DNA of 64,000 nt from a virus (IMGVR_UViG_3300027631_000002:32001-96000), one strand, 5' to 3'. Shown: positions 4,808 through 26,787, counted from the stretch's first letter. The notes: generated by a model not told the origin, from the letters alone. Made by a program: numbers and translations.

Positions 4808-4816
4808 TAATATATA
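4808..4816 (+). promoter_or_regulatory. putative phage late promoter TAATATATA
   Basis: recurs upstream of structural and tagged genes; 4 nt before ATG 4821. Confidence 0.6.
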
Positions 4817-4820
4817 AACT

Positions 4821-10573: not shown

Positions 10574-10624
10574 ACTACAAAGTTACATTTAATTTTTAAT
10601 ATATACAAAAAAGTAATTTTTATA

Positions 10625-12374: not shown

Positions 12375-13772
12375 TTAGTTACATTCATAACAATCAACTC
12401 TACCACTACCTCCACATTCATCACATTCTGATGTTCCATCACCATCACATCTTCCACATTCTTCTAGACCACGACCTCCACATTCTTTACATTCTACTGT
12501 ACATTCTCCGTCACATTTATCACAAGTTGATCTACCATCACCATGACAATCATCACATGATTTTTTCCCATTTCCTTCACAGTCAGTGCATTCTTCACCT
12601 TCTTCATCAGTTCCGTCTCCATCACAAGTTTCACACTCTACTTCGCCATAACCATCACAATCACGACACTCTACTTCACCATCTCCATCACATTTTGGAC
12701 AGTTCTCTGTTCCATCACCTTCACATTCAGAACATTCTTGTTCTCCTTCTCCATCACATCTGTAACATTGTCTTTCTCCTGCATCACATTCTTCACATTC
12801 AAAACTACCTCTTCCACCACAATTATCACAAGAACCATCTCCACCATCGGTACTAGTTAGTTCTGCATCGTAGTTTGAGTTATAGTTTGTACTAAGTTGT
12901 CCTTTGTCTCTTAGAAGATATTTCAGTGTATCCATATAAGGATAATCATCAAAATTTGATTGTTCTAATGTAACATAAACCCAGCTATCTTCTCTTTCAA
13001 GTTGTTCTCCATTAAACATAATAGGATCACCTGTGTGGAATGTTTGATTCATTTTATAATAGAATTCGTTTTCTTTTGCAAAGTCTATAAATAATTCAGT
13101 ATCAGAATGGTTTATAATATAAACTCGGTCCATAAATTTTCTTCCTTTATCATCTAACCAAAGAAGTGCTCTAGCTGTAATTTTATCTGGATTCTCTACA
13201 GATCTTAATATAATAAGTGATACTCTATCCGGATTATCGGAATAGATTGATAAGAATTGTTGACATTTTGGATATCTCATGCAGGAAGAACCTAGTGTTC
13301 CTAATTCTTTATCGTAATTTTCTACGTGATACCATTTTTTAATATCGTTACCATTAACTATTTCAAATCTTGTAAAAGATTCTTTCTCTATTAAGATAGT
13401 TGCTTTATATTTACTTACAAAATCTTCAAGATCTTTTGGTTTAACTTCGATGCCTGCTTTGGTTAGAATTGCTCTTACAAATCTACCAACATTCATGTCA
13501 GATTTTTTAATTGTTTTAGGATCTTCTACTTTTTTTGCTTTATCATCTGGTGTAAAGAATACTTTATCTTCTTTATCTACATCATATGAGATATAGTTAT
13601 AGTTAGTATCTACCTCTTCACCGTCTAATTTTAATAATTCAGATGCAACTGGAGATTTTATTTTTTTCAATAAGTCATAAAACTTATCATCTAGTACAAT
13701 TGTTGCTTCTAATAAAAGCATCATGTCTTTTTCTAGTAAAAATTCGTCGTATTTTGATATTTTATTATTCAT
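12375..13772 (-). CDS. paralogue A: conserved SCM/RALLW/MDRVY core plus 14 CxxC(xGxG) DnaJ-type Zn repeats
   Basis: translation; start corrected to MNNKISKYDEFLLEK. Confidence 0.8.
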   Translation of the reverse strand: MNNKISKYDEFLLEKDMMLLLEATIVLDDKFYDLLKKIKSPVASELLKLDGEEVDTNYNYISYDVDKEDKVFFTPDDKAKKVEDPKTIKKSDMNVGRFVRAILTKAGIEVKPKDLEDFVSKYKATILIEKESFTRFEIVNGNDIKKWYHVENYDKELGTLGSSCMRYPKCQQFLSIYSDNPDRVSLIILRSVENPDKITARALLWLDDKGRKFMDRVYIINHSDTELFIDFAKENEFYYKMNQTFHTGDPIMFNGEQLEREDSWVYVTLEQSNFDDYPYMDTLKYLLRDKGQLSTNYNSNYDAELTSTDGGDGSCDNCGGRGSFECEECDAGERQCYRCDGEGEQECSECEGDGTENCPKCDGDGEVECRDCDGYGEVECETCDGDGTDEEGEECTDCEGNGKKSCDDCHGDGRSTCDKCDGECTVECKECGGRGLEECGRCDGDGTSECDECGGSGRVDCYECN

Positions 13773-13830
13773 AATGTATATATTATTTTTTTTTATGTGA
13801 AAAGTCAATTATTTTTTTAATATATAGTTT

Positions 13831-15555
13831 ATGAGAGTTTTAAAGTATCTTAAATTTTTTGAAGAAGTTGAACTTAACCTAGGTGAGTTAGAAAAGAGTA
13901 GAGGTGGTGAAAAGAGGGGTAATGCTTTAATAAAGAAATTACAAGAGCCAGAAGTTAAATTAACTATAAAAGGAGAAGGTGAACGAACTATTGATCATAT
14001 AAAAGTTGATGGTGAGGATGTAGTTCCTAGTATTGCAGCAAATGCTATTAAGAAAGGAAATACTAATACTTATGATGATATTAAAGGTGCTAAGTTATTC
14101 GGTAAGCCTAGATATAAAGATGTTTTTGTTTCTGGTAAAGAAGAATTTAGACTAAATCAAATAAAGAAAACTACAGAATTTGGTGCAGTTGGTCCAGGTG
14201 TTTTAACTAGGGAATATGAAGCAATTCAATGTTTATTTATAGCATATAAGTTAAAGTATCCTGAAAAACCTATCCTTATTTCTGAAGTTTTAGATTTTTG
14301 GGAAAGTTATTGTAACAAAGATGCGGAAGCATTAAAAAGAATTCATATTTATTTAGATAGTAATGTTGTAATCACAGAAGATATGTTAGATAGTTTATCT
14401 TCTAATAGAGATTGGTTCAATACTTTTGTTAAAGTACCTGAGGAGTTATTAAAATTTAGAGGTAAGTTTTCAACGGGAAAGAGTTATTCTGTTTTTCATG
14501 AGTCTAATAATGATAAACAGTCACCTGTTCGTTTATTGATAGAAAAGTTCAATGAGTTAAAAAATAAAAAAGTGGTTGGTAAAAATAAAAATGGTTCAAA
14601 TAAGACAGCTTCTATTAATTTTTCTAAATTTTGTCCAGCAGATGTTTATATTATACAGACAGACTTTATTACAGAATTAAATAAAGCAATTGAGGATTGT
14701 AAGATTAGTATAGATTCTTTGAAACCCTTAGAGAATTTAATAAATATTATGGATGATTATTTTGATCGTAATATTTTAATACCAATATCACTTAAAAAGA
14801 TAAAATCTGGTAAGGAAACATTTCAAATAATTGTAAATAAAGAAAGAAATAAAAAACTACCTGATTTTGATATTAAATATTTTAGAATAACACAAGATCC
14901 TACTAAAGGAATTGGGTCAAAAATTTCTACCATATCTAAATGGAGTGAAGAACGTACTACAGATGGAGAAGAAAATACAATTAGAAAAAATAGAGATATT
15001 ACTATTGACTCATCAAATACTGGCAACTCTGTAAATGTTGATGGTGAGGTAATTGGTTCTTCGTCGAGACATGGAAAAATATCTTTTACTGCAATAAAAT
15101 CTATATTAGATATTTATAAAGATGATAAAAGGTTTAATTTAGATGAGATAGAGAAGCATTCTGAACTTAAAAAAAGAACTCTTATGGATTTAAGAAATTC
15201 TATTAGTATTTTATACAATGAATTACTTAGTCTAAGAGAATTTGCAAATGGTGTTGATATTATGGAAATGCCTTCTACTCAGCAAATTCCAAATATTAAA
15301 AAAGGTGAATTTACTGGTACTTCTTGGGATAAAGTTATTAAATATACTGATTTATCTAAAACTGAAGAGGAAGATGGTAATATTAAAAATAAATTAATAT
15401 CCAAATTACAATCTTTACAAATATTAGTTTCTATCGCAACGATATATAAAGTGGATCCAAATTTAGGTAATGATATTATTACCAAAATGATGAGACACGC
15501 CCTTTCTATTCAAACTTATGATTTTGAAACTCCTAGATATTTAAGAATAATTTAA
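13831..15555 (+). CDS. tagged protein with putative PD-(D/E)xK nuclease-like core
   Basis: MRVLKYLKFFEE; EAIQC, FCPADVYII, LIPISLKK. Confidence 0.55.
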   Translation: MRVLKYLKFFEEVELNLGELEKSRGGEKRGNALIKKLQEPEVKLTIKGEGERTIDHIKVDGEDVVPSIAANAIKKGNTNTYDDIKGAKLFGKPRYKDVFVSGKEEFRLNQIKKTTEFGAVGPGVLTREYEAIQCLFIAYKLKYPEKPILISEVLDFWESYCNKDAEALKRIHIYLDSNVVITEDMLDSLSSNRDWFNTFVKVPEELLKFRGKFSTGKSYSVFHESNNDKQSPVRLLIEKFNELKNKKVVGKNKNGSNKTASINFSKFCPADVYIIQTDFITELNKAIEDCKISIDSLKPLENLINIMDDYFDRNILIPISLKKIKSGKETFQIIVNKERNKKLPDFDIKYFRITQDPTKGIGSKISTISKWSEERTTDGEENTIRKNRDITIDSSNTGNSVNVDGEVIGSSSRHGKISFTAIKSILDIYKDDKRFNLDEIEKHSELKKRTLMDLRNSISILYNELLSLREFANGVDIMEMPSTQQIPNIKKGEFTGTSWDKVIKYTDLSKTEEEDGNIKNKLISKLQSLQILVSIATIYKVDPNLGNDIITKMMRHALSIQTYDFETPRYLRII

Positions 15556-15845
15556 AAATATCTTTTAATATTTCCTACTTTATCTATAAGAACATTTTTA
15601 CCATCTTTCTTACGAACTAGAATATCTGTTCCTGAAAATCTTGCTTCTAATACACCGTGTGATAAAACTCTTATCGGATTACCACCAATATCTTTAGTTT
15701 CTAATTTACCATCTATACTGGTTATTAAAAAAATATTCTGTGATTCATCATATGTACCAAAGGCAACATTTTCAGATATTTTTCTACCAAGATTCCCCAT
15801 AGTATCACATATGTATAATGATTGATTTAGTATTTTAAACATCAT
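15552..15845 (-). CDS. hypothetical beta-rich protein
   Basis: 97-aa ORF; overlaps stop of neighbour. Confidence 0.65.
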   Translation of the reverse strand: MMFKILNQSLYICDTMGNLGRKISENVAFGTYDESQNIFLITSIDGKLETKDIGGNPIRVLSHGVLEARFSGTDILVRKKDGKNVLIDKVGNIKRYF

Positions 15846-15879
15846 AACTTTTATATAATTTTATTATATATATAATAAT

Positions 15880-16026
15880 ATGGAAAAGAAAAATATATTT
15901 CTTTTATTAGATGATGAAATTGTTACACGTTACAAAGAACATCTAGATAAGGTAGGATATGATAAAAATAAGTTATTTGAAAGAATAATTATTGATTTTT
16001 TGAAGAAAAACACAATAAAGTCTTAA
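15880..16026 (+). CDS. small ribbon-helix-helix-like DNA-binding protein (not in ORF track)
   Basis: MEKKNIFLLLDDEIVTRYKEHLDKVGYDKNKLFERIIIDFLKK, 48 aa, translated by hand. Confidence 0.55.
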   Translation: MEKKNIFLLLDDEIVTRYKEHLDKVGYDKNKLFERIIIDFLKKNTIKS

Positions 16027-16077
16027 AAAGGTACTTTTAGGTAATTTTTATTTATATATAGCATAAGGAAAATAATT

Positions 16078-16287
16078 ATGAGGTACTTGAAAGAATTTAA
16101 CGAAAATAAGGATGTATTCATGGAATACCTACTTGAGTTTACTGAGAACGGTAAGCCAGAGGAGTTGTATAGTAGTAGATTAACTAAATTACTTAGATTT
16201 GTGAGAATGGAAGGCCTTAAAGATTATACTATAAAAGGAATAACTCGTTCAGCAGAACATAAGATAATTTTAAAAATAGGAAAATGA
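16078..16287 (+). CDS. tagged small protein
   Basis: MRYLKEFNEN. Confidence 0.7.
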   Translation: MRYLKEFNENKDVFMEYLLEFTENGKPEELYSSRLTKLLRFVRMEGLKDYTIKGITRSAEHKIILKIGK

Positions 16288-16288
16288 A

Positions 16289-16313
16289 GAACCCACTCGA
16301 AAGTGGGTTTTTT
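16289..16313. terminator. bidirectional terminator
   Basis: AACCCACT-cgaa-AGTGGGTT plus T tract. Confidence 0.85.
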
Positions 16314-17281
16314 TAGTTCATATACTCTGTGAAAAATTGTTCAAAGATAGCTTGCATTACTGGAACACATATTGAATTTCCAGCTAGTGCTACGTGTTGT
16401 TTAGTTGTTAAACTTGTAGTTAGTAAATTATCAATATCCTCATCTTTAACTCCCATAAAACGATAACCTTCTCTTGCAGTTAAAGTTCTAATTTTCTTAT
16501 CATCTAACATAATTTGTGGTGAACCTGATGTAGTTAAACAAGGTGAACAACCATCTATTGAGTAGATTCTTCTTGTTTGATCATATTTTATATCACTTCT
16601 TCGAGCAATCATTCTACAAACAGAGTTTAGTTTAGGCGTATTTATTTCATAAGGTGGTGTAATAAATAAACTATTATCCGCAGTTGTATCAATAAATGGT
16701 TTCATTGGAACTCTAGTTTTTTTATGATTGTGAACACTCATCATTTTATTAGAAACATCTAAAGAAGATTCTCCTAATACTGAAAACATGAAAACTCTTT
16801 CTCTATTTTGAGGACAGCCGAAGTCGGCACCATTAAGTACCATCCAAGCTGAACCATAACCTAAAGAGTTAAGTTTTTCAATGTAATCATTAAATTTTTT
16901 GATGTGATTTTTTGAAACTAAATTTTTCACATTTTCCATTAGTAGATACTTTGGTTTATTATGTTCTACGATTCTTTCTACTTCGTATAATAAACCACTT
17001 CGTGTTCCTTTTTCAATACCACGTTGTACACCAGAGATAGATATATCTTGACAGGGAAATGAGTATGTTAAAAAATCACAATGTGGGAAAGTTTTTTCAT
17101 CAACTTTAGATACATCACCTAAATTACCTTGTTCGGTAGTGTGTAGTGAGTCGTACGCTTCGTTTGCTGATTTAAGAATGTCACAATTTGCGACGTTACG
17201 GTATTTAATACCACTATACTTTAGTGCTAGTTCTTGAGTGCCATACCCTGAGAATAGGCTTATAATTTTTAATTCTTCCAT
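16313..17281 (-). CDS. dcm: DNA (cytosine-5) methyltransferase
   Basis: SLFSGYG, FPCQDIS, ENV, QNRERVF, LAGNSI motifs. Confidence 0.93.
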   Translation of the reverse strand: MEELKIISLFSGYGTQELALKYSGIKYRNVANCDILKSANEAYDSLHTTEQGNLGDVSKVDEKTFPHCDFLTYSFPCQDISISGVQRGIEKGTRSGLLYEVERIVEHNKPKYLLMENVKNLVSKNHIKKFNDYIEKLNSLGYGSAWMVLNGADFGCPQNRERVFMFSVLGESSLDVSNKMMSVHNHKKTRVPMKPFIDTTADNSLFITPPYEINTPKLNSVCRMIARRSDIKYDQTRRIYSIDGCSPCLTTSGSPQIMLDDKKIRTLTAREGYRFMGVKDEDIDNLLTTSLTTKQHVALAGNSICVPVMQAIFEQFFTEYMN

Positions 17282-17311
17282 ATTAGATTATATGTGAGAA
17301 TTAAAAAATGT

Positions 17312-17785
17312 TTAGTCTAAGTGTCTAATATCTTTATGTGAAGATTTTTCGTTACCGTTGTGAGACCACAATCTTGCAAATGGTGTAGTAAAGTAATCAT
17401 TATAACATAAAGTATCATCAATATGAAGGTCTATATTATTTTCTTTACAATATTCTGCTTTTGTTGAATCCCATAAAACATCATCGAATTTTTTCTGAAT
17501 AGTTCCATCCGGAAATTCAATCTCACCTAAGATTTCTGCGGTTTTTAATAGGTGATCATAAACTGAGAATTTATGAGTATAGTTTATACCGTGTAGTTGT
17601 TTTTCTAATTTATCTGTCCATTCCCCTCCAGTGATTACATGCACTTCACCACCATTTTTTATAACAGAGTCTGCTAAAAATACAAAGAATTCTGGAATTG
17701 CATCGATTACTCCGTGTATATCGATACCAATTTTGAATTTTGCTGTTGAACTTTCGTTCACTATACTACTAAATTTTGTTATCAT
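17312..17785 (-). CDS. HAD-superfamily phosphatase-like tagged protein
   Basis: IGIDIHGVID, HVITG, LHIDD. Confidence 0.65.
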   Translation of the reverse strand: MITKFSSIVNESSTAKFKIGIDIHGVIDAIPEFFVFLADSVIKNGGEVHVITGGEWTDKLEKQLHGINYTHKFSVYDHLLKTAEILGEIEFPDGTIQKKFDDVLWDSTKAEYCKENNIDLHIDDTLCYNDYFTTPFARLWSHNGNEKSSHKDIRHLD

Positions 17786-17795
17786 AATTTATATA

Positions 17796-18188
17796 TTAAA
17801 TTATTTCTTCAATTTTCTTATCTCTCATTTCTGCAGTAGATAAAATTTCTTTTACAAAGATATGAAAATTACTCGTAAAAGTAATCAAGTTGAATGAAAT
17901 ATTTGTACTCATTCCGGCACCACTTGATTGACTATCTAAAGTTGGATTTGTCTTTGTAATACTTCCCCAATAGTTAAATCCAAATGATGGTTCATAAATA
18001 GCACTATTACTACTTCTTTCATTCCAAAATTCTATTACAAATGTTTTGCTTTCTGTTTCGTTACTGTCATATTCATATAAAATTGTAAATTGATCATTGT
18101 CATAAAATATATTTAAAATCTTACTGTAAGCAGGTAAATGAAAGCTTGCTTGATTATAACTGGTGTGTGTTGATTGTGTTGTTATCAT
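17796..18188 (-). CDS. hypothetical protein with RDxK tail
   Basis: ends MRDKKIEEII. Confidence 0.72.
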   Translation of the reverse strand: MITTQSTHTSYNQASFHLPAYSKILNIFYDNDQFTILYEYDSNETESKTFVIEFWNERSSNSAIYEPSFGFNYWGSITKTNPTLDSQSSGAGMSTNISFNLITFTSNFHIFVKEILSTAEMRDKKIEEII

Positions 18189-18550
18189 ATTCCTAATTTA
18201 CTTAAAATTTTATCTCTATAGAAACTTATATCATCAACAATAAAAAGGTTTGAATCTGTAATAATTAGATCATCAATAATCTCAATAATCTTTGATGTTT
18301 TTTGTAGTGACATAATTCCTACATTTTGATTACTTGTAACTATTTGATCTATTTCTAATAAATCTACATTAGCTGGTTCTTGATTTACAATACCTTTACA
18401 TCTTTGTATAGAATACTTATCTATAAATTCTTTATTATTTAATATTTTTTTATAGAATTTATTTTCAGTATCTACCATAACATAGGAAACCTCGGTAGAT
18501 TTCCCACCGAGGTGATTATGAATTAAATCTCCTACCTTAATTAGTTTCAT
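18185..18550 (-). CDS. hypothetical protein with RDxK-like tail
   Basis: IKVGDLI N-terminus; ends YRDKILSKLGI. Confidence 0.72.
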   Translation of the reverse strand: MKLIKVGDLIHNHLGGKSTEVSYVMVDTENKFYKKILNNKEFIDKYSIQRCKGIVNQEPANVDLLEIDQIVTSNQNVGIMSLQKTSKIIEIIDDLIITDSNLFIVDDISFYRDKILSKLGI

Positions 18551-19383
18551 TATAGTATTTTAGTGCCTGGTTTGGCATTTACCACAAATACTGGTGTACC
18601 ATTTTCTAATTCACCTGGCATAATCATCGCGTGTGACTCAATCCCCATCATCTTAACAGGTTTTAAATTTGTTATGAACAAGAAAGAGTACCCTTCTAAT
18701 TTATCAACGTAGTTCTCACCTAAAGAAGGTTTAATGTTTGTTACAACAACTCTCGGTGTATCTTCACCAAAATCAACTTCTAACTTAATAAGTTTATCTG
18801 ATTTAGGTACATCTGTTACTGATATAATCTTACCTGTTTTAATTTCTAATTTAGATGAAGCATCTAAAAATTCCGAAAATTCTATTTTATCTTTCATGTT
18901 TAATATATTTATTGCTTTAATTTTACATTCTTCTTTTAGTCCTGGAATTCCTAATTTCCAAGGTTTTACTGGTTCTCCTGTTGAACAATTTACAAAATAA
19001 TCTTGTTGTTCGTCCAGGAAATCTTGTATATCATCAAATATAACATACTGGGTTACTTCTGGGTGTCTATCTAACCAAAGTTTAATTTCATGACCTCTTT
19101 TTACTTGGTCATAATAAACTATATTGGTTGATTCACATACATCTACACAATCTGGTGTTACATCAATAATTTCACCTGGTAGTTGACGTTCTTTCCATAG
19201 ATCTAACATTCTTTGAATACCTTTATCTTTCCAAGTGGAAGAGATAACGATTTTCGCACCTGTTTTTTCAATAATTTCCTTTAAGTTCTGGACGTATTCA
19301 TCCCTGAAGATATGACCGAATTGGTCTTTATCATCATAATCTACGTTTAGAACGCCGTCTATGTCAAGAAATATTGTTTTCAT
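18550..19383 (-). CDS. HAD domain (Swiss-Army-knife RNA repair type) fused to a Trbp111/CsaA-like tRNA-binding OB domain
   Basis: IFLDIDGVLN, IVISSTW, YVIFDD; then IKTGKIISV..SDKLIKLEVDFG..TNLKPVKMMGIESHAMI. Confidence 0.8.
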   Translation of the reverse strand: MKTIFLDIDGVLNVDYDDKDQFGHIFRDEYVQNLKEIIEKTGAKIVISSTWKDKGIQRMLDLWKERQLPGEIIDVTPDCVDVCESTNIVYYDQVKRGHEIKLWLDRHPEVTQYVIFDDIQDFLDEQQDYFVNCSTGEPVKPWKLGIPGLKEECKIKAINILNMKDKIEFSEFLDASSKLEIKTGKIISVTDVPKSDKLIKLEVDFGEDTPRVVVTNIKPSLGENYVDKLEGYSFLFITNLKPVKMMGIESHAMIMPGELENGTPVFVVNAKPGTKIL

Positions 19384-19400
19384 AATAGCAAAGATAAGAA

Positions 19401-19643: not shown

Positions 19644-19730
19644 TATCTATATATTCACTTTCATGCAACATCATGATATATAACTAAATAATAATATAAT
19701 TTTTGTTTTTAAAATTTAATATATACTCTT

Positions 19731-20168
19731 ATGAAATACATAAAATTATTTGAGAATGCTATACCTCTACGACAGCCTTCTTATAAGAAAGGTGAGATAA
19801 TAATTTGGTCGGATCAGATTAAAAATAAAGATGTTGATTATGATTTTGCTAAGAAATTGCTTGATCGAGTAGGTCTTAAATTAGTAGGAGAACCTTATGA
19901 TGGTGGATTTTTAGTAGAATGTGAACCAGGTAAAGAAGTAGAAAGTGCAGAAATGGCAATTTCTAGGTTTCCTGAATTTTTTGATAGTTACCAAAGAGAA
20001 GATATAAGAATGCCATTTATTTGGGATAAAATGGAAGAAATAACCGATAAAGTTGCGGGTATAGAAGATTTCTTTGAAAGAATTGATAAGAAATTTGTAA
20101 ATATTAAAAAGTATAATGATTATCTTGATGATATAATAAGTGAACTTGATAATTTAAAAATAAAATAA
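19731..20168 (+). CDS. tagged hypothetical protein
   Basis: MKYIKLFENA; TAATATATA at 19717-19725. Confidence 0.75.
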   Translation: MKYIKLFENAIPLRQPSYKKGEIIIWSDQIKNKDVDYDFAKKLLDRVGLKLVGEPYDGGFLVECEPGKEVESAEMAISRFPEFFDSYQREDIRMPFIWDKMEEITDKVAGIEDFFERIDKKFVNIKKYNDYLDDIISELDNLKIK

Positions 20169-20171
20169 AAA

Positions 20172-20205
20172 ATGAAACCCTTACTCTTTCAAGTAAGGGT
20201 TTCAT
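20172..20205. terminator. bidirectional terminator
   Basis: ATGAAACCCTTACT-ctttca-AGTAAGGGTTTCAT. Confidence 0.8.
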
Positions 20206-20207
20206 AT

Positions 20208-20254
20208 AATAAGTAAAGTTGTGTTACTCACTAACCATCGCTTCACGAATTTTT
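20208..20254. repeat. 47-bp direct repeat copy 1 (degenerate hairpin)
   Basis: 43/47 identical to 21340-21386. Confidence 0.9.
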
Positions 20255-20456
20255 CTTTTTCATAATTATCTACATTCACCAATTTTAGGAATTTGCGAAG
20301 CAACTGTTGTCGTATGATTTCTTTCCCTCTGAACTCCTGTACAGTCATTAATTGTTATATAATAAGTAGAAAAATTCATCGCTGGATTCTGTGGTGTACC
20401 CACAACATTGAAGGTAGTTGCCTAAATATATCTGAGTATCGTTATACATAATATTT

Positions 20457-20891
20457 TTAATTATTACTATACCAAATTTTTTCTATTTCTTCGATATCAT
20501 TAAAAGGTATTATAAATGCAAATGAATTTTTGTTTTTACTTCTATCAAAAAATAGTCTATGATGTCCATCCATTATCCACAAATTCTGATGTTTATCCTC
20601 AACTAAAATTATATCAGACTTTTTGTATGTTTGGTCATCTAAACTATCGATAAAATTTTTAGATAGGTATTTTTGTGTAGTGAGTAGTGGTATTGATTTA
20701 TCTATTTCTTCTTTTTCATAAGGAAACGCTTCTAATGTATCATCCCAATAGTTTATTGAAGTATCACGAATATTGTATAGGTAATCTGGTAATCTCTCAA
20801 GAAAGATTATGTTATGATATTTTTTAGATAAATCTATTTTATCATCTGAGATGTTTTCATTGAAACTAAAAAATTTTTTTATTAAACTCAT
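20457..20891 (-). CDS. ParB/Srx-like N-terminal domain protein, tagged
   Basis: IILVED..LWIMDGHHRL. Confidence 0.7.
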   Translation of the reverse strand: MSLIKKFFSFNENISDDKIDLSKKYHNIIFLERLPDYLYNIRDTSINYWDDTLEAFPYEKEEIDKSIPLLTTQKYLSKNFIDSLDDQTYKKSDIILVEDKHQNLWIMDGHHRLFFDRSKNKNSFAFIIPFNDIEEIEKIWYSNN

Positions 20892-21058
20892 AAAATATTA
20901 ACTTTTTTATAATCCCCATATACTAAAAGTTTTCCCGTTAGAGTTTCATACCAGAATCTCAATTTTTTGTTGTTCTCATCATAACATTGAAGAATCATTT
21001 CTTTTTTAACATAAAAAATAGATGTTGCATTGATAAAATTTGTTCTCTTTATTTCCAT
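20888..21058 (-). CDS. small hypothetical protein (not in ORF track)
   Basis: 56 aa MEIKRTNFINATS...; ATGA overlap with the next gene. Confidence 0.6.
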   Translation of the reverse strand: MEIKRTNFINATSIFYVKKEMILQCYDENNKKLRFWYETLTGKLLVYGDYKKVNIL

Positions 21059-21081
21059 ATCTTATATATATTAAAAACTGA

Positions 21082-21135
21082 ATATAACAAATGATAAACA
21101 ACATTAAAACGATTGTTTATCATCAGACGTTATAC
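21082..21135 (+). other. attC-like imperfect palindrome
   Basis: ATATAAC-aa-ATGATAAACAA-11 nt-TTGTTTATCAT-cagac-GTTATAC. Confidence 0.5.
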
Positions 21136-21188
21136 ACAATACTACATTAGTGTTTCAAATTAAGTTCCGTGTAAAAAACTTTTAAAAA

Positions 21189-21293
21189 TTATGGTTTAAT
21201 CGTTCTTTGATACCAACTTTCCAAAATAACAACATCTTCTTTTCTTGCTTCAACTTCACCACCAAACATTCTAATCCAAGTAAAATCGCCAAT
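21189..21293 (-). pseudogene. orphan 3' gene fragment
   Basis: IGDFTWIRMFGGEVEARKEDVVILESWYQRTIKP* preceded by an in-frame TAG and a terminator. Confidence 0.4.
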
Positions 21294-21339
21294 CTAAAAA
21301 TAAAATAAAAAGTCCTCATATGAGGACTTTTTATTAAAC

Positions 21340-21386
21340 AATAAGTGAAGTTGTGTTACTCACTAACCACAACTTCACGAATTTTT
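21340..21386. repeat. 47-bp direct repeat copy 2 (hairpin GTGAAGTTGTG..CACAACTTCAC)
   Basis: overlaps 3' end of 21356-21673. Confidence 0.9.
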
Positions 21387-21673
21387 GTGAATTCACCATT
21401 ACTTACAGCTTTGCTGATCCACCTGTTTAAATCTGAACCTTTCATTTCTGACTCGAATGTAGTTGTGCCTAAATCAGAAGATAATCTGGTTTCTAATACT
21501 TCGTCACCTTTATTATCAAATCCACAATTTCCAACTTCAACAGTAGCGATAGGAAATTGATAAACACCGTCAGCTAACTCTACTGTATAGTAAAGATTAC
21601 CACTAACATAGTGACTTAATTTTGCCATTGCTTTAGATTTGTATAAATCTTTTTTAATATCGTTTAATTCCAT
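21356..21673 (-). CDS. hypothetical protein
   Basis: 105-aa ORF downstream of tRNA. Confidence 0.75.
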   Translation of the reverse strand: MELNDIKKDLYKSKAMAKLSHYVSGNLYYTVELADGVYQFPIATVEVGNCGFDNKGDEVLETRLSSDLGTTTFESEMKGSDLNRWISKAVSNGEFTKIREVVVSE

Positions 21674-21695
21674 TTTGAATTTTTATTTTTAATTG

Positions 21696-21774
21696 TGGTG
21701 GCGATTGAGGGATTTGAACCCCCGACCTTCTCGTTATGAGCGAGCTACTACTTACCAGACTGAGTTAAATCGCC
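21696..21774 (-). tRNA. tRNA with CAU anticodon (elongator Met or Ile2), encoded CCA
   Basis: GGCGATT/AATCGCC acceptor, loop CTCATAA, T arm GGGGG-TTCAAAT-CCCTC, ACCA end; TATCTTTG at 21785-21792. Confidence 0.92.
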
Positions 21775-21889
21775 TATCATTCTACAAAGATATATATATA
21801 TACTTGTATTTCGTATTTGTTTTACAAAAGTACAAAAAATAATTGAAAAAAAAATTAAATAAATAGGAAAAATATACTATCTTTGTGAA

Positions 21890-22255
21890 ATGGAAATTAT
21901 ACAGCGACATGGCATTGCCTTTAAAGTAATAGAAAGAAAGATGAATTTCCCTTTCATAACTGATTGTGATGATATGTTATGTGAAGATATAAGTTCATTT
22001 TATTCAGACCCAAACACACAATCTATTGTTCTAATTAGAGATAACTATTCTAAACCTATTATGACTTATCAAGATGTTCTTGATGAGATAGAGTATCTAT
22101 ATGATAATAGTATTCGTTGGAGAAGTGAAGAAAGAAGAGATAGTTTAAGAACTTACTATCATAAAGTCTCTAATATAATGAAAACTTACAAAAGACAAGA
22201 ACAAATAAATAAGGTATTAAATAGTAACGAATGTACATTTCACCTAGCATGTTAA
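21890..22255 (+). CDS. hypothetical protein with RDxK-like tail
   Basis: KRQEQINKVL; TATCTTTG 4 nt upstream. Confidence 0.72.
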   Translation: MEIIQRHGIAFKVIERKMNFPFITDCDDMLCEDISSFYSDPNTQSIVLIRDNYSKPIMTYQDVLDEIEYLYDNSIRWRSEERRDSLRTYYHKVSNIMKTYKRQEQINKVLNSNECTFHLAC

Positions 22256-22767
22256 AAAACAAATTATACTTATTCGATAAGTGGTTATACAAAGATAGAA
22301 ACTCATTACTTGTTTTACTATTAGTTGTTGGTTCTACATTTATGATTAGTTATGAACCTACTATTTTTTATGGTATTGGATTATTATCTATCATATGTTT
22401 TTATGTTGTCTTTATAAAAGCAAAAATTTTAGGTCAAGATTGGAAACTAGATAAGTCAGTATATGATGTACCACAAGAACAAGAAATTATAGTAACGACA
22501 AAAGATTTTTATTGGGATGGTTATGTCAAATCAAATCACATACATAGTCATACTAGTAAACCTAATACACTTTTTGTAAAGAAAGGAACAGAATTTAAGA
22601 TTATTGATTTAAAAGAAGAGAAAGAAGATTGGAGACTAATGCTAAAAAAAGGTAATGGTGAAATGATTATTACGGTAGGTTACTTTGAATCAAGAAAGTA
22701 TTATAAAACAAAGTCTCAAATTAGAGAAGAAAAATTAAAGAAATTATTAAGTAAAAAAATATGGTAA
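22231..22767 (+). CDS. membrane protein with RDxK-like tail
   Basis: two N-terminal hydrophobic segments; IREEKLKKLL. Confidence 0.72.
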   Translation: MYISPSMLKNKLYLFDKWLYKDRNSLLVLLLVVGSTFMISYEPTIFYGIGLLSIICFYVVFIKAKILGQDWKLDKSVYDVPQEQEIIVTTKDFYWDGYVKSNHIHSHTSKPNTLFVKKGTEFKIIDLKEEKEDWRLMLKKGNGEMIITVGYFESRKYYKTKSQIREEKLKKLLSKKIW

Positions 22768-23471
22768 AATTACTACCCGCAACATTCAAATGGGTTCCCA
22801 AATTAGATGATGTTATCAAGATTTCCGGTCTACATCCAAGTCGAGTATTTAACGTAACTATTTTTGGTTCACGTGTTTATGGTAATTATGATTCAGCATC
22901 TGACTGGGATATTATTATAGTTGCAAATAATTCAGTAGAAGCAATTGAGTTAAAAGAAACTGTGCAAGACGAGTATTCTTATAATATGAATCATAGATTT
23001 ATTACATATAACATTCACATTTATACACCAGATAGATTTCAAAAGGATTTAGATTGGCATCGTATGAATAATCTTGAATGTATCTTTGCACCAGACTGGG
23101 CTAAGTTAAAAGAAGATAAAAAATATGAGTTTAACTTAGACTTAAAAAAATTAAGACATGCTTCATCACATATTAGTTCTAATTCTTGGATAAAATGTAA
23201 GAAAAAACTATTGATTGATGATCAGTATCGTACTGCTATAAAATCATTCTATCATTCTATAAGAATACCTATGTTTGCAACACAAATTGCTAGAAGTGGT
23301 AGAATAACTGACTTTACAACTGCTAACTTTATTTGGAGAAGACTTATGTTTGATGAAGTTCCTAGTTATCAAAAGAAAGATAGTAAATGGGATTGGGATT
23401 CTTTAAATTTAGAGTTTAAAATTACATATAATCTAATGTTAAGTTTATTTAGAAAAGTAACTGATAAATAA
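22761..23471 (+). CDS. Pol-beta superfamily nucleotidyltransferase
   Basis: IFGSRVYG..SDWDIIIV. Confidence 0.82.
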   Translation: MVKLLPATFKWVPKLDDVIKISGLHPSRVFNVTIFGSRVYGNYDSASDWDIIIVANNSVEAIELKETVQDEYSYNMNHRFITYNIHIYTPDRFQKDLDWHRMNNLECIFAPDWAKLKEDKKYEFNLDLKKLRHASSHISSNSWIKCKKKLLIDDQYRTAIKSFYHSIRIPMFATQIARSGRITDFTTANFIWRRLMFDEVPSYQKKDSKWDWDSLNLEFKITYNLMLSLFRKVTDK

Positions 23472-23707
23472 TGGAAGAAGAATTAGAAAAATTATATCAA
23501 GATTTACTTACAAATAGACAAACCTATAGAGGTCAAGGTTTATTACAAGTTAGTCCGCCACAACCACATCAGAATTTAATTGATAATCCAACGGTTATAA
23601 ATTATGATTTTGCTTCTTTGTATCCAAGTGTTCAGAAAAAGTATTATTATAAAATAAGTATGAAAGTTTCTATTAGAAAAAGAAAGATTAGAAATATATT
23701 ACAATAA
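23471..23707 (+). CDS. mini-protein carrying a family-B polymerase motif A peptide and an RDxK-like tail
   Basis: YRG..VSPP..VINYDFASLYPSV; ends IRKRKIRNILQ. Confidence 0.65.
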   Translation: MEEELEKLYQDLLTNRQTYRGQGLLQVSPPQPHQNLIDNPTVINYDFASLYPSVQKKYYYKISMKVSIRKRKIRNILQ

Positions 23708-23737
23708 AAAAACACATCGTTAAGATGTGTTTTTTGT
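23706..23737. terminator. bidirectional terminator
   Basis: AAAAAAACACATC-gttaa-GATGTGTTTTTTT. Confidence 0.85.
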
Positions 23738-25291
23738 TTAATTACATTCTGGACATCCAACTTCACCTCGTCCATTACATATATCACAAGATTCTTCACC
23801 TCGTCCATCACAGTTATAACATTCTCCTCTTTTCTCACCTTCACAGGTTTCACATTCATTTTTACCTGTTCCCGAACAAGTAGCACATTCTACTTCACCA
23901 GATAATAATTCTATTGTTCCGGTTCCAGAACATTCATTACAATCTACTTCACCATGTCCTTCACATTCAGAACAATCTGATTCACCAGTACCATGACAAA
24001 CACGACAATTTGTAGTACGTTCTCCTTCACATTCAGGACAATCAACTATTCCACTACCTTCACATATATCACAACCTTGTCCATTAGAACCATTAGTTTG
24101 AGTTAGTGTATAATATGTTGTGTGATTCGACCAGGGGAACTCTCTATTAGAGATTATACCAAGATCTGGGCTATAATACTTCATAGTATCCATATAAGGA
24201 TAATAGTCATAATATTCTCTTCTAAGTTTGACTGTTACTACACTTTCTTTACCATATACTTCATTTCCGTTAAAAACTAAACTAGAATCTTCTTCATAGC
24301 TTTGTTCTGATTTGTGATAATAATCATGTTTATAACAATACTCTTTGAATAGAAGTATATCAGAATTTCTAATAGTGTATATTCTGTCCATAAATCTTCT
24401 TCCTTCTTCATCTAACCAAAGAATAGCTCTACCAGAAATTTTAGTAGAATCTTCTTCACTTATTAAAATAATCATTGATACTTTATCAGAATTTTCAGTA
24501 TAAATATCAAAATATTTTTGACATTCTGAATGTCTCATACAAGATCCACCTAATGGTCCTCCAATTTTTTCATAATTATCTTCTAAATACCACTTTTTTA
24601 TTTCATCACCTTTAACTTCTTTAAATCTTTTAAAAACATTCTTTTGTAATTCTAATACTTTTTTATATTTATCAACAAAGTCTTCAATCTCTTTATCTTT
24701 ATATTCTAATCCTAAATTTTTTAGAAAGGCTCTAACAAATCTTCCAACATTTACCTCAGTAGGGGTAATTTTAGAAACATCTTTCACAAGATAATTGTCT
24801 AAGACTATTGCTTCATAGGTTTTACCTCTTTCTTCAAATTGAAAAACAAATAATTGTTGGTTATTATCGTACATATAAGACCAAACACCTGGATTATTTG
24901 GTGAAATTTTTAGAACTTCTTCTAAAGTAAACTTTTTTATAACCGTCCCGGTTTGACCATCAGATGGCTCTTTCCAACCGTGTATAATACCCATATTATC
25001 TGCTACCTTAGATAGATTATCATAAACACCTCCATTACTACGTAATGTGTATATAGCTTTATCAATTTTATCTTGAGGTTTAAAAAATATACTATCAGTT
25101 TTATCTCTATTTATATCAATATAGTTTCTGGTAACATCCATATCTCTACCCTTATATGATAAAATTTGAGCGGCTATATTAGAATCTATCTTATCTAATA
25201 CATCTAAAAATTGTTGTGTATAAACTATTTTAGCTTCTAAAAGAAGTTCTAGTTTACTTTCTGTAATAAAATCTAAGTAATTTGAAATCAT
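23738..25291 (-). CDS. paralogue B: SCM/RAILW/MDRIY core plus 10 CxxC repeats
   Basis: translation; TAATATATA at 25296-25304. Confidence 0.8.
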   Translation of the reverse strand: MISNYLDFITESKLELLLEAKIVYTQQFLDVLDKIDSNIAAQILSYKGRDMDVTRNYIDINRDKTDSIFFKPQDKIDKAIYTLRSNGGVYDNLSKVADNMGIIHGWKEPSDGQTGTVIKKFTLEEVLKISPNNPGVWSYMYDNNQQLFVFQFEERGKTYEAIVLDNYLVKDVSKITPTEVNVGRFVRAFLKNLGLEYKDKEIEDFVDKYKKVLELQKNVFKRFKEVKGDEIKKWYLEDNYEKIGGPLGGSCMRHSECQKYFDIYTENSDKVSMIILISEEDSTKISGRAILWLDEEGRRFMDRIYTIRNSDILLFKEYCYKHDYYHKSEQSYEEDSSLVFNGNEVYGKESVVTVKLRREYYDYYPYMDTMKYYSPDLGIISNREFPWSNHTTYYTLTQTNGSNGQGCDICEGSGIVDCPECEGERTTNCRVCHGTGESDCSECEGHGEVDCNECSGTGTIELLSGEVECATCSGTGKNECETCEGEKRGECYNCDGRGEESCDICNGRGEVGCPECN

Positions 25292-25359
25292 AGGTTATAT
25301 ATTAAATTAGTATCATGAAAAAATCCCTTTAGAAAGGGATTTTTTTTAATTTTTATTTG

Positions 25360-26787
25360 TTAGTAATCACCTTCACAGTCTGGACAAGTAATCTGATCAT
25401 CACCATCACATTGTGAACAAGTTTTCTTACCTTCACCACCACATGTTTCACATTCCATATCATCTATTTCACCATCTCCATTACATTCAGTACAAACTTC
25501 TTCACCATCTCCATTACAAGTTGGACAAGTAATAGTACCATCTTGTTCACAAGTTGCACAAAGTTTATCATAATAACCTTCAGTTGATTCACAATAATAA
25601 ACTACTCCACTTTCTGAATTTTCATTTGATATAATTCCAGTTTCAGGACTATAGTATTTTAAAGTATCCATATAAGGAAAATTTTCATGTCTTTTATGTA
25701 ATTGAACTTGTGCAGTAAAATAGTTTTCCTGTTGACCTTCTGGTCCAATAGCATTTATAGTTGAAGAACTATTATTATTTGATTTATACCACCAACCACT
25801 ATCTTGTGCAAATTGTTTGAACAGTTCAACATCAGAATCAGAATTAGTATAAACCCTATCCATTAATTTTTTACCATTTAAACATTCCCAAAGAATTGCA
25901 CGTCCAATAATTTTACTATCATCATCTTGTGATTTATAAATAATTAAAGATACAGTGTTGTTTTCAGTATATGGATCTAACCAACTAGATTCAGCTTCTG
26001 CCATACAAGAATTTGCTAATGTACCACTTGGATCATAGTAATTATCATACTGATATTTATAATAAATATCATCACCTTGAACAACATCAAAGAATGAGAA
26101 TTTATCATTGAATTTATCCATCTGAGCTTTATATAAATTCACAAAGATTTCAATATCTCTTGCTGTAAATTTGGCAGTATCATCTTCTCTAGCAGCTAAA
26201 GTTAAAAGAGCATTCATTGATCTACCAACTCTAACATCTTGACGATTTTTTGACCAAACCAATTTGTTTCTATCATCAACTGGTCTCAATTTCTCTAAAT
26301 TAAAAACACCTTGACCATTTGCAAATTTTAACCAAATCCAAGTTTTACCAGATTTTTCAGAAACTATCTTTTCAACAACTTCACCAACTTCTGCTGATGT
26401 AGGTTTATAAACATCTCCTTCTGGTACATATCCTAATCTACCAAAAATTCCATTATTTGCTTCACCGTGAGTTAGCCATCCACCATTATTTCCTACAAAA
26501 CGATATAATTCTTTTGGATCATTTAAAATCTCTTGAGCTTTTCTATCTGCAGTAAAGTACAAATAATCATTTCTTACTGGATCTATATCAAAGTAGTTAG
26601 CAACTACTGGTAAGTCTTTCTTTTCTAATCCTAGAATCTTTTTAGCAACAGGACTATCAATTTTACCTAATACTTTCTTAAAATTATCTGAAAACATTAC
26701 ATCCGACTCTAATAAAAGTTCAATCAATTGAGATTCTGTTATTAAATCATGTGATTCTGTTATAAAATCAATATATTTTTTTAACAT
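25360..26787 (-). CDS. paralogue C: SCM/RAILW/MDRVY core plus 6 CxxC repeats
   Basis: translation; MLKKYIDFITES. Confidence 0.8.
   Translation of the reverse strand: MLKKYIDFITESHDLITESQLIELLLESDVMFSDNFKKVLGKIDSPVAKKILGLEKKDLPVVANYFDIDPVRNDYLYFTADRKAQEILNDPKELYRFVGNNGGWLTHGEANNGIFGRLGYVPEGDVYKPTSAEVGEVVEKIVSEKSGKTWIWLKFANGQGVFNLEKLRPVDDRNKLVWSKNRQDVRVGRSMNALLTLAAREDDTAKFTARDIEIFVNLYKAQMDKFNDKFSFFDVVQGDDIYYKYQYDNYYDPSGTLANSCMAEAESSWLDPYTENNTVSLIIYKSQDDDSKIIGRAILWECLNGKKLMDRVYTNSDSDVELFKQFAQDSGWWYKSNNNSSSTINAIGPEGQQENYFTAQVQLHKRHENFPYMDTLKYYSPETGIISNENSESGVVYYCESTEGYYDKLCATCEQDGTITCPTCNGDGEEVCTECNGDGEIDDMECETCGGEGKKTCSQCDGDDQITCPDCEGDY

What the first reader, a model, noticed from the sequence alone, without database searches (positions are those of the whole stretch)
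12375..26787. Three paralogues ending in graded nested Zn-hairpin rods of 14, 10 and 6 CxxC motifs
Seen: 12375-13772 has 14, 23738-25291 has 10 and 25360-26787 has 6 CxxC(xGxG) motifs, mostly at 11-aa period. In each, the one irregular spacer lies exactly at the midpoint (GTDEEGEE after 7, GTIELLSGEVE after 5, GEIDDME after 3). Established: DnaJ Zn fingers pair motifs in a nested hairpin (1 with 4, 2 with 3). Inference: acidic beta-hairpin rods with 7, 5 and 3 Zn sites, a length series that could act as rulers, reach arms or DNA mimics. No J domain is present.
Basis: partly seen in the sequence, partly recalled or inferred. Interest (0 to 1): 0.8.

Follow-up and report, generated by a model that had tools for sequence, protein, structure and literature searches.

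The report
Zinc-ladder stalks on capsid-tagged phage proteins
Three related genes of a very large phage each end in a thin, strongly acidic hairpin that is probably held together by 7, 5 or 3 zinc ions; this is a stretched version of the two-zinc finger of DnaJ and BSD2, and the proteins also carry the kind of N-terminal tag that phage T4 uses to load proteins into its head.

Summary
Observation confirmed. Three minus-strand paralogues (465, 517 and 475 aa) end in 14, 10 and 6 CxxC(xGxG) motifs at an 11-residue period. Each has one long spacer exactly at the midpoint.

The nested-hairpin reading is supported.
- An AlphaFold2 model of the 6-motif rod superposes on the BSD2 crystal structure at 1.5 A over 52 residues.
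- 223 of 238 homologous rods (4-16 motifs, at least 35 independent length changes, all by 2 or 4 motifs) keep the long spacer central.
- In unrelated proteins with such arrays, spacing irregularities are mirrored on the two arms.

Zinc was not measured, and the long rods were not modelled with confidence.

New here:
- The body has a GNAT-like fold but no CoA-loop signature.
- The N-terminus matches the T4 capsid-targeting sequence and its L/I-x-E cleavage site.
- The genome has a T4-type capsid gene beside a protease-scaffold gene whose repeats resemble the tag.

Most likely these are head-packaged, possibly ejected, proteins on acidic zinc-ladder stalks. The ruler and DNA-mimic ideas remain untested. 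The 14/10/6 series is particular to this genome. The scan noted the same family on another genome (e1-5689616). Verdict: new variant of a known kind.

The parts
12375..13772 (-). W1 gene, 465 aa: tag + N-terminal domain + GNAT-like domain + 14-motif rod
13731..13751 (-). W1 N-terminal tag YDEFLLE (residues 8-14), followed by K; fits the T4 CTS pattern and an L-x-E site
12858..13385 (-). W1 residues about 130-305: GNAT-like fold with invariant G-x-L-G-x-S-C-M-R, R-A-x-L-W, M-D-R-x-Y and Y-P-Y-M-D
12378..12830 (-). W1 rod, residues 315-465, 14 CxxC motifs (7 predicted Cys4 sites), net charge -36
12591..12623 (-). W1 tip spacer (residues 384-394) between motifs 7 and 8
23738..25291 (-). W2 gene, 517 aa, with an extra insert of about 90 aa before the core; 10-motif rod
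25259..25279 (-). W2 tag YLDFITE (residues 5-11), followed by S
23741..24073 (-). W2 rod, residues 407-517, 10 motifs (5 predicted sites), net charge -20
23888..23929 (-). W2 tip spacer (residues 455-468) between motifs 5 and 6
25360..26787 (-). W3 gene, 475 aa; 6-motif rod
26755..26775 (-). W3 tag YIDFITE (residues 5-11), followed by S; a second I-T-E-S lies 8 residues on
25363..25560 (-). W3 rod, residues 410-475, 6 motifs (3 predicted sites), net charge -17; the part that was modelled
25453..25482 (-). W3 tip spacer (residues 436-445) between motifs 3 and 4

Best explanation
Each gene encodes a modular phage protein with four parts. (1) An N-terminal tag of about 12 residues, K-Y-x-D/E-F-I/L-x-E, followed by S or K. 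(2) A conserved N-terminal domain. (3) A domain with a GNAT-like fold that bears the family's invariant polar residues. (4) A C-terminal rod. The rod is a single long beta-hairpin made of BSD2/DnaJ-type CxxCxGxG knuckles at an 11-residue period. Motif i on the outgoing arm and motif N+1-i on the returning arm together give four cysteines to one metal site. This makes ladders of 7, 5 and 3 sites, with the long spacer as the turn and the first and last motifs clamped beside the globular body. My odds for this topology are about 0.85; that the metal is zinc is inferred from the family. The rods carry about -2.3 net charge per motif. Length changes by adding or removing a rung, that is, one motif on each arm. 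The tag has the same pattern as the T4 capsid-targeting sequence and ends in the L/I-x-E site of T4-type prohead proteases. I therefore infer (odds about 0.55) that these proteins are loaded into the prohead core, trimmed, kept in the head and possibly ejected with the DNA. In that picture the body acts as an effector or enzyme (a GNAT-like transferase is a guess, about 0.3) and the rod as a thin, rigid, DNA-repelling or DNA-like stalk. Shown: the motif arithmetic, the conservation, the mirror symmetry, the fit of the model to BSD2, the fold hits, the tag match, and the T4-type head genes. Inferred: metal binding, packaging, cleavage, and any activity.
For: Rod topology. The AF2 model of the W3 rod has pLDDT 83-91 over residues 31-60. 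Its best PDB match is BSD2 6ekb: Foldseek E 1.3e-5, TMt 0.68, and VIA Z 6.8, rmsd 1.5 A over 52 residues, model 22-73, which covers motifs 2-5. BSD2 itself has the 11-residue step between its motifs (alignment). 223 of 238 homologous rods have an even motif number with one long spacer exactly central, N = 4-16. There were at least 35 independent changes of N on the tree of the globular parts, all by +-2 or +-4. W2 and its 82%-identical 6-motif relatives share the base motifs and differ in the centre. Gap patterns are mirror-symmetric: in the family, mismatch 57 against 1129 when shuffled; in other architectures 415 against 1305, and 35 of 53 arrays with 3 or more irregular gaps have p<0.05. 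One example reads 11,11,11,13,13,13,11,19,11,13,13,13,11,11,11. In Brevibacillus phage Jenst a 6-motif rod is inserted inside a distant relative of the core, which requires the two ends of the rod to lie next to each other. Profile hits go to DnaJ CR (1.9e-6) and BSD2 (6e-4), and 65 of 76 relatives hit BSD2_CRD. Acidity: -2.30 +- 0.42 per motif in 241 rods against -0.31 per 11 aa in the cores. Core: pLDDT 80-93; all leading Foldseek and VIA hits are GNAT enzymes, Z up to 6.2. Tag: T4 IPIII and IPII begin M-K-T-Y-Q-E-F-I-A-E-A. PMC9026906 states that gp21 cleaves after L/I-X-E, and that CTS residues 4 and 7 target and residues 8 and 10 govern processing. 209 of 240 homologues keep [YF]x[DE]F[ILVM]xE in the first 24 residues, followed by S in 194. 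The genome has a Gp23-family capsid gene (103 bits). Directly upstream lies a 736-aa ORF with a weak Peptidase_S77 match and ten 14-residue repeats, each containing Y-S-E-Y-[ILV]-A-E.
Against: No metal was measured. AF2 gave pLDDT of only 21-35 for the 14-motif rod within the whole protein, and only about 50-70 for the basal rung of the 6-motif rod. Residue covariation gave no signal. Some relatives have a tip step of only 10 residues, so a site formed by two neighbouring motifs is sterically possible. The GNAT resemblance is of middling strength: Z about 6, at most 18% identity, no Pfam acetyltransferase hit, and no Q/R-x-x-G-x-G/A loop (the segment reads Y-I-I-N-H-S-D-T-E-L-F). The Peptidase_S77 match is below Pfam's cut-off (15.6-17.9 bits against 27). 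The rodless core homologue gp037 of Cellulophaga phage phi38:1 is not among the genes annotated as structural in that record and lies among metabolic genes. A strongly acidic protein inside a DNA-filled head is not what T4's basic IPII and IPIII would lead one to expect (own knowledge).
Confidence: 0.6

Rival explanations
1. The rod is a string of independent zinc fingers, each made by two neighbouring motifs (1+2, 3+4, and so on), not a nested hairpin.
For: Tip steps of 10 residues exist (for example three 10-motif relatives and one 12-motif relative). A Cys4 site across a 6-7-residue linker is therefore feasible. AF2 was not confident for the long rods. In anti-TRAP, two adjacent motifs form one site (hits).
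Against: This model gives no reason for the long spacer to stay exactly central through at least 35 length changes, nor for insertions to be mirrored on the two arms. With 7, 5 or 3 motifs per arm, one pair would have to straddle the spacer anyway. The modelled 6-motif rod fits the nested BSD2 hairpin at 1.5 A.
Confidence: 0.07
2. The cysteines do not hold zinc in the working protein. The ladder would instead be disulfide-bonded, or bind iron as in rubredoxin, or switch between zinc-bound and oxidised states as a redox-sensitive element.
For: CxxC pairs can form disulfides. DnaJ-type zinc domains have reported thiol-oxidoreductase activity (PMC4428491; PMC7865324, abstract). Nothing here measures the metal.
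Against: All solved relatives hit by sequence or fold (DnaJ CR, BSD2, anti-TRAP) bind zinc through Cys4 (own knowledge of these entries). The G-x-G after each CxxC is the knuckle signature of that family, with 96% and 93% Gly. The phage proteins are made in a reducing cytoplasm.
Confidence: 0.1
3. The proteins are not packaged. They are cytoplasmic J-less DnaJ/BSD2-like assembly chaperones or holdases that use the zinc hairpin to grip client proteins, and the N-terminal peptide is a shared leader with some other role.
For: BSD2 and other J-less CxxCxGxG proteins are client-specific assembly factors (PMC5818400 and PMC7865324, abstracts). The phi38:1 homologue is not annotated as structural. 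The S77 protease match is sub-threshold.
Against: The tag matches the T4 CTS pattern residue for residue (Y-x-acid-F-I/L-x-E) at the same distance from the start. It is kept in 209 of 240 homologues. It also resembles the repeats of the scaffold-like ORF next to the T4-type capsid gene. A related leader opens about 24 further ORFs of this genome fragment, against 0.7 expected, as would be expected for a sorting signal. BSD2-type holdases have 2 rungs; there is no reason for 3-8.
Confidence: 0.25
4. The rods are DNA mimics. A rigid acidic rod would occupy the DNA-binding groove of host restriction or nucleoid proteins after ejection, with different lengths for different targets.
For: Net charge is -2.3 per motif (-4.6 per rung), conserved across 241 rods. 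By contrast, such arrays in other protein families average -1.2 and a quarter are positive. Each Zn(Cys)4 centre adds a formal -2 (chemistry, own knowledge). T4's injected IPI* is an anti-restriction protein (PMC3012670).
Against: There is no structural measurement of rod width, pitch or charge spacing. No target is known. Rodless members of the family carry plain acidic tails instead, which points to bulk charge rather than DNA-like geometry.
Confidence: 0.15

Closest known systems
BSD2 cysteine-rich domain (Pfam PF25436; PDB 6ekb, 6ekc, 8ilb, 8ilm)
   Same: CxxCxGxG knuckles with the same 11-residue step between motifs on each arm, a hairpin with a long turn, and no J domain. The model of the 6-motif rod fits it at 1.5 A over 52 residues.
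   Different: BSD2 has 4 motifs and 2 metal sites; here there are 6-14 (up to 16 in the family and 24-29 in other proteins). BSD2 is not strongly acidic. It is a plastid Rubisco assembly factor, not a phage protein.
DnaJ/Hsp40 central cysteine-rich domain (PF00684; PDB 1exk, 1nlt)
   Same: The same motif and nested pairing (1 with 4, 2 with 3; own knowledge of 1exk). Best profile hit in the PDB, E 1.9e-6.
   Different: No J domain, no G/F region and no C-terminal client-binding domains. DnaJ has longer and unequal steps between motifs, and two sites only.
T4 internal head proteins IPII, IPIII and Alt with their capsid-targeting sequence
   Same: An N-terminal peptide with Y-x-acid-F-I/L-x-E ending in an L/I-x-E protease site. 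A variable cargo sits behind a conserved tag. There are several paralogues per genome. The genome has a T4-type capsid gene.
   Different: No sequence similarity beyond the tag. Packaging is not shown. The cargo is much larger (about 50 kDa) and acidic.
GCN5-related N-acetyltransferase (GNAT) superfamily
   Same: The order of strands and helices in W1 residues about 130-305. All top structural hits are GNATs.
   Different: No Pfam match and no pyrophosphate-binding loop signature. The conserved residues (S-C-M-R, D-R, Y-P-Y-M-D) are not GNAT motifs. Nearest predicted viral structures are unnamed marine-phage proteins, and more distantly PcfJ-like proteins.
Anti-TRAP (PF15777; PDB 2bx9, 3ld0)
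   Same: A one-rung version of the same knuckle pair; fold hits with rmsd 1.6-1.7 A over 33 columns, and 26 of 76 relatives hit the Pfam model.
   Different: A single site, an oligomeric regulator of TRAP, and not a rod.

Membership tests
DnaJ/BSD2-type cysteine-rich zinc-finger domains (PF00684, PF25436) | Repeated CxxCxGxG motif | tested here: met
   14, 10 and 6 copies. Across the family, Gly is 96% at position 6 and 93% at position 8 of the 11-mer.
DnaJ/BSD2-type cysteine-rich zinc-finger domains (PF00684, PF25436) | Score over Pfam's gathering cut-off | tested here: inconclusive
   W1 scores 27.4 bits for BSD2_CRD against a cut-off of 27. W2 and W3 score about 13 bits. 65 of 76 relatives match at E<=1, best 8e-8. 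PDB profile hits: 1exk 1.9e-6, 6ekb 6e-4.
DnaJ/BSD2-type cysteine-rich zinc-finger domains (PF00684, PF25436) | Nested hairpin pairing of motifs (outer with outer, inner with inner) | tested here: met
   Met in the model only: 6ekb fits motifs 2-5 with Z 6.8 and rmsd 1.5 A. Supported by the midpoint and mirror statistics.
DnaJ/BSD2-type cysteine-rich zinc-finger domains (PF00684, PF25436) | Four motifs forming two zinc centres | tested here: not met
   There are 6, 10 and 14 motifs, so 3, 5 and 7 predicted centres. Hence a variant, not a standard member.
DnaJ/BSD2-type cysteine-rich zinc-finger domains (PF00684, PF25436) | Zinc bound by four cysteines | not testable with these tools
   Needs metal analysis of purified protein.
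DnaJ (Hsp40) co-chaperones | J domain with HPD motif | tested here: not met
   No PF00226 hit at E<=1 in any of the three proteins.
GNAT acyltransferases | GNAT fold (beta1-alpha1-alpha2-beta2-beta3-beta4-alpha3-beta5-alpha4-beta6) | tested here: met
   Met at the model level. Secondary-structure order. All 50 top VIA hits and the leading Foldseek hits are GNATs (Z 6.2-4.4, about 110 residues, rmsd 3-4 A). Z below 8 is only moderate support.
GNAT acyltransferases | Q/R-x-x-G-x-G/A pyrophosphate-binding loop between beta4 and alpha3 | tested here: not met
   The segment after strand 212-219 reads N-H-S-D-T-E-L-F; the family consensus is T-x-T-A-D-E-Q-L-F; there are no glycines.
GNAT acyltransferases | Match to a Pfam acetyltransferase model | tested here: not met
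   None at E<=1 for the three proteins or for 76 relatives.
T4-type capsid-targeted internal head proteins | N-terminal capsid-targeting peptide like M-K-T-Y-Q-E-F-I-A-E | tested here: met
   W2 has Y-L-D-F-I-T-E, W3 has Y-I-D-F-I-T-E and W1 has Y-D-E-F-L-L-E, at residues 5-11 or 8-14. T4 sequences were read. 209 of 240 homologues keep the pattern.
T4-type capsid-targeted internal head proteins | L/I-x-E cleavage site at the end of the tag | tested here: met
   I-T-E followed by S (W2, W3) and L-L-E followed by K (W1). The motif is as given in PMC9026906. Cleavage itself is untested.
T4-type capsid-targeted internal head proteins | T4-type head module in the same genome (gp23-family capsid protein, gp21-family protease) | tested here: inconclusive
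   Gp23 is clear at 103 bits. Peptidase_S77 scores only 15.6-17.9 bits against a cut-off of 27, but it lies directly upstream of the capsid gene and is fused to scaffold-like repeats.
T4-type capsid-targeted internal head proteins | Presence in the virion and ejection | not testable with these tools
   Needs virion proteomics. The phi38:1 homologue is not annotated as structural.

The most novel reading that the evidence does not exclude
The 11-residue CxxCxGxG unit is a general building block that grows by whole rungs into rigid zinc ladders of 2 to about 14 sites. This would be a length-tunable protein rod that has not been described. Huge phages would attach strongly acidic versions of it to capsid-targeted effectors, so that a thin, DNA-like stalk travels with the genome and blocks host DNA-binding defences.
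Probability: 0.15. Interest if true: 0.85.

Novelty: new variant of a known kind. Interest (0 to 1): 0.62.

Why it matters
The rods extend a textbook two-zinc finger into ladders with 3 to 8 rungs in this family, and into arrays of up to 24-29 motifs elsewhere (3904 clusters hit at E<=1e-3). Length changes by whole rungs. No solved structure found here has more than two rungs, and no paper found here describes such arrays. If confirmed, this is a simple, designable rigid rod whose length is set by the motif count. It is also a large unannotated class of proteins. Separately, the T4-like tag gives a testable handle on which of the many unknown genes of huge uncultured phages are loaded into the head. 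About 27 of 198 ORFs in this 180-kb fragment carry it or a close variant.

Tried and rejected
1. Residue covariation between motifs (MI with APC, by size class). Nested, adjacent and shifted pairings were not distinguishable, with Neff 11-57. Inconclusive.
2. Complex prediction of the two arms of the W2 rod with 4 Zn. No verdict (0.27 against a mark of 0.32). Not evidence either way.
3. AF2 of whole W1. The rod had low confidence, so the 7-rung geometry is not modelled.
4. Search for a donor of W2's 10-motif rod among the other rods. None apart from its own orthologue.
5. EMB2737 (8xku_R), considered as a possible solved multi-rung ladder. The alignment shows 2+2 motifs around a long loop. Rejected.
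6. T4 MotA C-terminal domain. PDB profile E 0.07-0.22, and 1 of 76 relatives hits MotCF at 0.025. Too weak, and not supported by the fold.
7. PcfJ. Atlas score 0.83 and BFVD probability 0.5-0.8. A lead only.
8. DUF7277, E 0.16-0.26. Dropped.
9. Literature searches for a statement of BSD2/DnaJ hairpin geometry and for long CxxCxGxG arrays. Nothing usable, so the DnaJ 1+4/2+3 pairing is cited from my own knowledge.
10. Functional link to M20 peptidase. It is adjacent in phi38:1 and three genes away in Jenst, but about 100 kb from the three genes here. Not pursued.

Full report
**Setting.** The window is 28% G+C. It is part of a 179.6-kb viral contig judged about 30% complete. The contig carries a tail sheath, a large terminase and a T4-type major capsid gene. 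The closest phage records are uncultured genomes of 634-735 kb, which hold 9-16 matching places each. So this is a fragment of a huge myovirus.

**The observation.** Three ORFs on the minus strand (W1 12375-13772, W2 23738-25291, W3 25360-26787) are paralogues over their whole length: 47% and 39% identity to W1.
- Their C-termini hold 14, 10 and 6 CxxC motifs.
- Start-to-start steps are 11 residues, except for one long step at the exact midpoint (15, 18 and 14 residues) and one 10-residue step in W1.
- The chains stop one to four residues after the last CxxC.
- Pfam gives only BSD2_CRD (W1 27.4 bits, cut-off 27) and sub-threshold DnaJ_CXXCXGXG hits. There is no J domain.

**Is the rod a nested hairpin?** Four lines of evidence bear on this.

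1. *Modelling.* AF2 on whole W1 modelled the body well but not the rod: pLDDT was 21-35, rising to 50-60 at the tip. The 6-motif rod of W3, folded alone with 46 six-motif relatives, reached pLDDT 83-91 over the four central motifs. Its best PDB match is the BSD2 crystal structure. Foldseek gives E 1.3e-5. VIA gives Z 6.8 and rmsd 1.5 A over 52 residues, covering model residues 22-73, which are motifs 2 to 5. BSD2 has the same 11-residue step on each arm (alignment). DnaJ's zinc domain pairs motif 1 with 4 and 2 with 3 (own knowledge of 1exk). I assume the same for BSD2, which I did not check in 6ekb. The basal rung has only pLDDT 50-70.

2. *The midpoint rule in homologues.* Two searches returned 240 relatives.
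   - Of 238 with a rod, 223 have an even motif number (4 to 16) and a single long spacer exactly at the centre.
   - Four more have a slightly short central step.
   - The rest are explained by a degenerate motif or by an extra CxxC just upstream of the rod.
   - On a tree of the globular parts, motif number changed at least 35 times, always by 2 or 4. I set aside four sequences, two without a rod and two with 5 or 13 motifs that I read as degenerate.
   - W2 and its orthologue have 10 motifs, while relatives at 82% identity have 6. The first three and last two or three motifs align, and the centre differs. Length is therefore changed at the tip end while the base is kept.

3. *Mirror symmetry beyond the family.* A search with the W1 rod alone found 3904 clusters at E<=1e-3. 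Many have other N-terminal parts, internal arrays and up to 24-29 motifs.
   - Their spacing patterns read the same forwards and backwards far more often than shuffled patterns do.
   - In the family, summed mismatch is 57 against 1129 when shuffled. In other architectures it is 415 against 1305.
   - Of 53 arrays with three or more irregular steps, 15 are perfect palindromes and 35 have p<0.05.
   - An extra two residues on one arm is matched at the mirrored place on the other arm. That is what two zipped antiparallel arms require, and what independent neighbouring fingers do not.

4. *An inserted rod.* In Brevibacillus phage Jenst a 6-motif rod sits inside a distant relative of the core, before its P-Y-I-D-D motif. 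This only works if the rod's two ends are adjacent.

Residue covariation and a two-arm complex prediction gave no answer. I put the nested ladder at about 0.85. Zinc itself is inferred from the family.

**Properties of the rod.** The 11-mer consensus is C-[SDGE]-[DE]-C-D-G-[DS]-G-[ERK]-[VI]-[ED].
- Net charge is -2.30 +- 0.42 per motif in 241 rods. This is seven times the density of the cores.
- Arrays in other families average -1.2, and a quarter are positive. Acidity is therefore a trait of this phage family and not of the fold.
- The DNA shows only a decayed 33-bp periodicity, 63-80% matches, so the repeats are old.

**The rest of the protein.** W1 residues 21-305 are modelled with pLDDT about 80-93.
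- Foldseek and VIA-align independently list only GNAT acyltransferases for residues about 130-305: Z 6.2-4.4, about 110 residues, at most 18% identity.
- No Pfam acetyltransferase model matches, and the CoA pyrophosphate loop signature is absent.
- The invariant residues (G-x-L-G-x-S-C-M-R, N180, R-A-x-L-W, M-D-R-x-Y, A-D, Y-P-Y-M-D, K284) look like a binding or active site of unknown chemistry.
- The nearest predicted viral structures are unnamed marine-phage proteins of 271-1113 aa.
- Rodless relatives exist. A 379-aa paralogue lies elsewhere on this contig. Members of LR756502 and Cellulophaga phage phi38:1 gp037 end in plain acidic tails.

**The N-terminal tag.**
- W2 and W3 begin with M plus three residues, then Y-L/I-D-F-I-T-E-S. 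W1 has Y-D-E-F-L-L-E-K at residues 8-15.
- T4 IPIII and IPII begin M-K-T-Y-Q-E-F-I-A-E-A.
- PMC9026906 reports that the first ten residues of IPIII suffice for loading into the head, that residues 4 and 7 matter for targeting and 8 and 10 for processing, and that gp21 cleaves after L/I-X-E. These positions are Y, F, I and E, the four that are shared.
- The pattern is kept in 209 of 240 homologues and is followed by Ser in 194. 145 also have L-L-L-E-[AS] a few residues further on.
- The contig has a Gp23-family capsid gene (103 bits). Directly upstream is a 736-aa ORF with a weak Peptidase_S77 match at its start. That ORF also has ten 14-residue repeats, each containing Y-S-E-Y-[ILV]-A-E, the same seven-residue pattern as the tag, followed by an acidic tail.
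- A related leader (M-K-Y/H-L-K-x-F/Y-E-x-F) opens 24 further ORFs of 198 on the contig, where 0.7 would be expected.

I read this as a head-loading signal modelled on the scaffold repeat (about 0.55). Against it: the protease match is below threshold, nothing shows the proteins in virions, and the phi38:1 homologue is not annotated as structural.

The series 14, 10, 6 is real here but is not a conserved set.
- Orthologues of W3 mostly keep 6 and those of W1 keep 14, but the W2 lineage switches between 6 and 10.
- Another huge phage has a different assortment, and the other genome noted in this scan has 6, 6, 14.
- Ruler, reach-arm and DNA-mimic roles all remain open. The conserved high negative charge is the one feature that favours a charge-based role.

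**Comparison and novelty.** The rod is a BSD2/DnaJ-type cysteine-rich hairpin in motif, step length and modelled fold. It fails the family's defining count of four motifs and two sites, and it has no J domain. I found no solved structure with more than two rungs. I found no paper describing long arrays in the library searched. Phage J-less CxxCxGxG modules with two motifs are known in HMO-2011-type DNA polymerases (PMC9038755). I class this as a new variant of a known kind, with moderate to high interest. The topology is well supported in silico, the class is large and unannotated, and the link to head loading is testable.

Noticed in passing
window 59717-60091(-), 59140-59751(-), 58715-59107(-), 57331-58458(-), 49144-49725(+), 45125-45634(-), 37802-38323(-), 33408-34076(-), 10535-11323(+), and others on the contig: About 24 of 198 ORFs on the 180-kb contig open with a shared leader M-K-Y/H-L-K-x-F/Y-E-x-F, where 0.7 would be expected by chance. 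It resembles the tag of the three paralogues and the T4 capsid-targeting sequence. It may mark a large set of head-loaded proteins.
   Followed up: partly
L019:131-2341 (+), which is G000:C1:132430-134640, outside the window: A 736-aa ORF with a weak prohead-protease (Peptidase_S77) match at its N-terminus. It has ten tandem 14-residue repeats containing Y-S-E-Y-[ILV]-A-E (each an L/I-x-E site) and a long acidic H-E-G-rich tail. It lies directly upstream of the Gp23-family capsid gene (L019:2430-4136). It looks like a protease-scaffold fusion.
   Followed up: partly
L001:730-1869 (-), which is G000:C1:141229-142368, outside the window: A fourth, distant paralogue of the core (379 aa; it has G-G-S-C-M and W-P-Y-L-D-T) without a rod and without the N-terminal tag.
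   Followed up: partly
L002:2071-3471 (Brevibacillus phage Jenst JENST_170): A distant relative of the core (G-T-S-C-Q, A-I-A-W-L, Y-L-P-Y-I-D-D) with a 6-motif zinc rod inserted inside the domain instead of at the C-terminus.
   Followed up: partly
L006:2528-3598 and 3629-4957 (phi38:1 gp038, gp037); L002:1-354 (Jenst JENST_167); G000:C1:155190-155714: An M20-family peptidase (a deacylase family) lies next to the core homologue in Cellulophaga phage phi38:1 and three genes away in Jenst. The present contig also has one, but about 100 kb from the three genes. This could be a functional pairing with the GNAT-like core, or coincidence.
   Followed up: no
L012 (LR756502.1:135235-139359) and L016 (LR756502.1:385806-389054): In another huge phage, a 651-aa protein has a 20-motif array with wider, irregular steps. 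A 698-aa protein with a tag-like start carries an internal 6-motif rod on a different body. So the rod is a mobile module.
   Followed up: no
window 11826-12371(-) and 13831-15555(+): The genes flanking W1 have no Pfam match and also begin with leader-like peptides (M-I-Y-L-K-K-F-N-E-S and M-R-V-L-K-Y-L-K-F-F-E-E). The 574-aa one matches only PHROG 1462, of unknown function.
   Followed up: partly
window 12413-12759 and 25366-25518: The rods show a decayed 33-bp tandem periodicity in the DNA (63-80% matches). The repeats are therefore old and not recent slippage products.
   Followed up: yes
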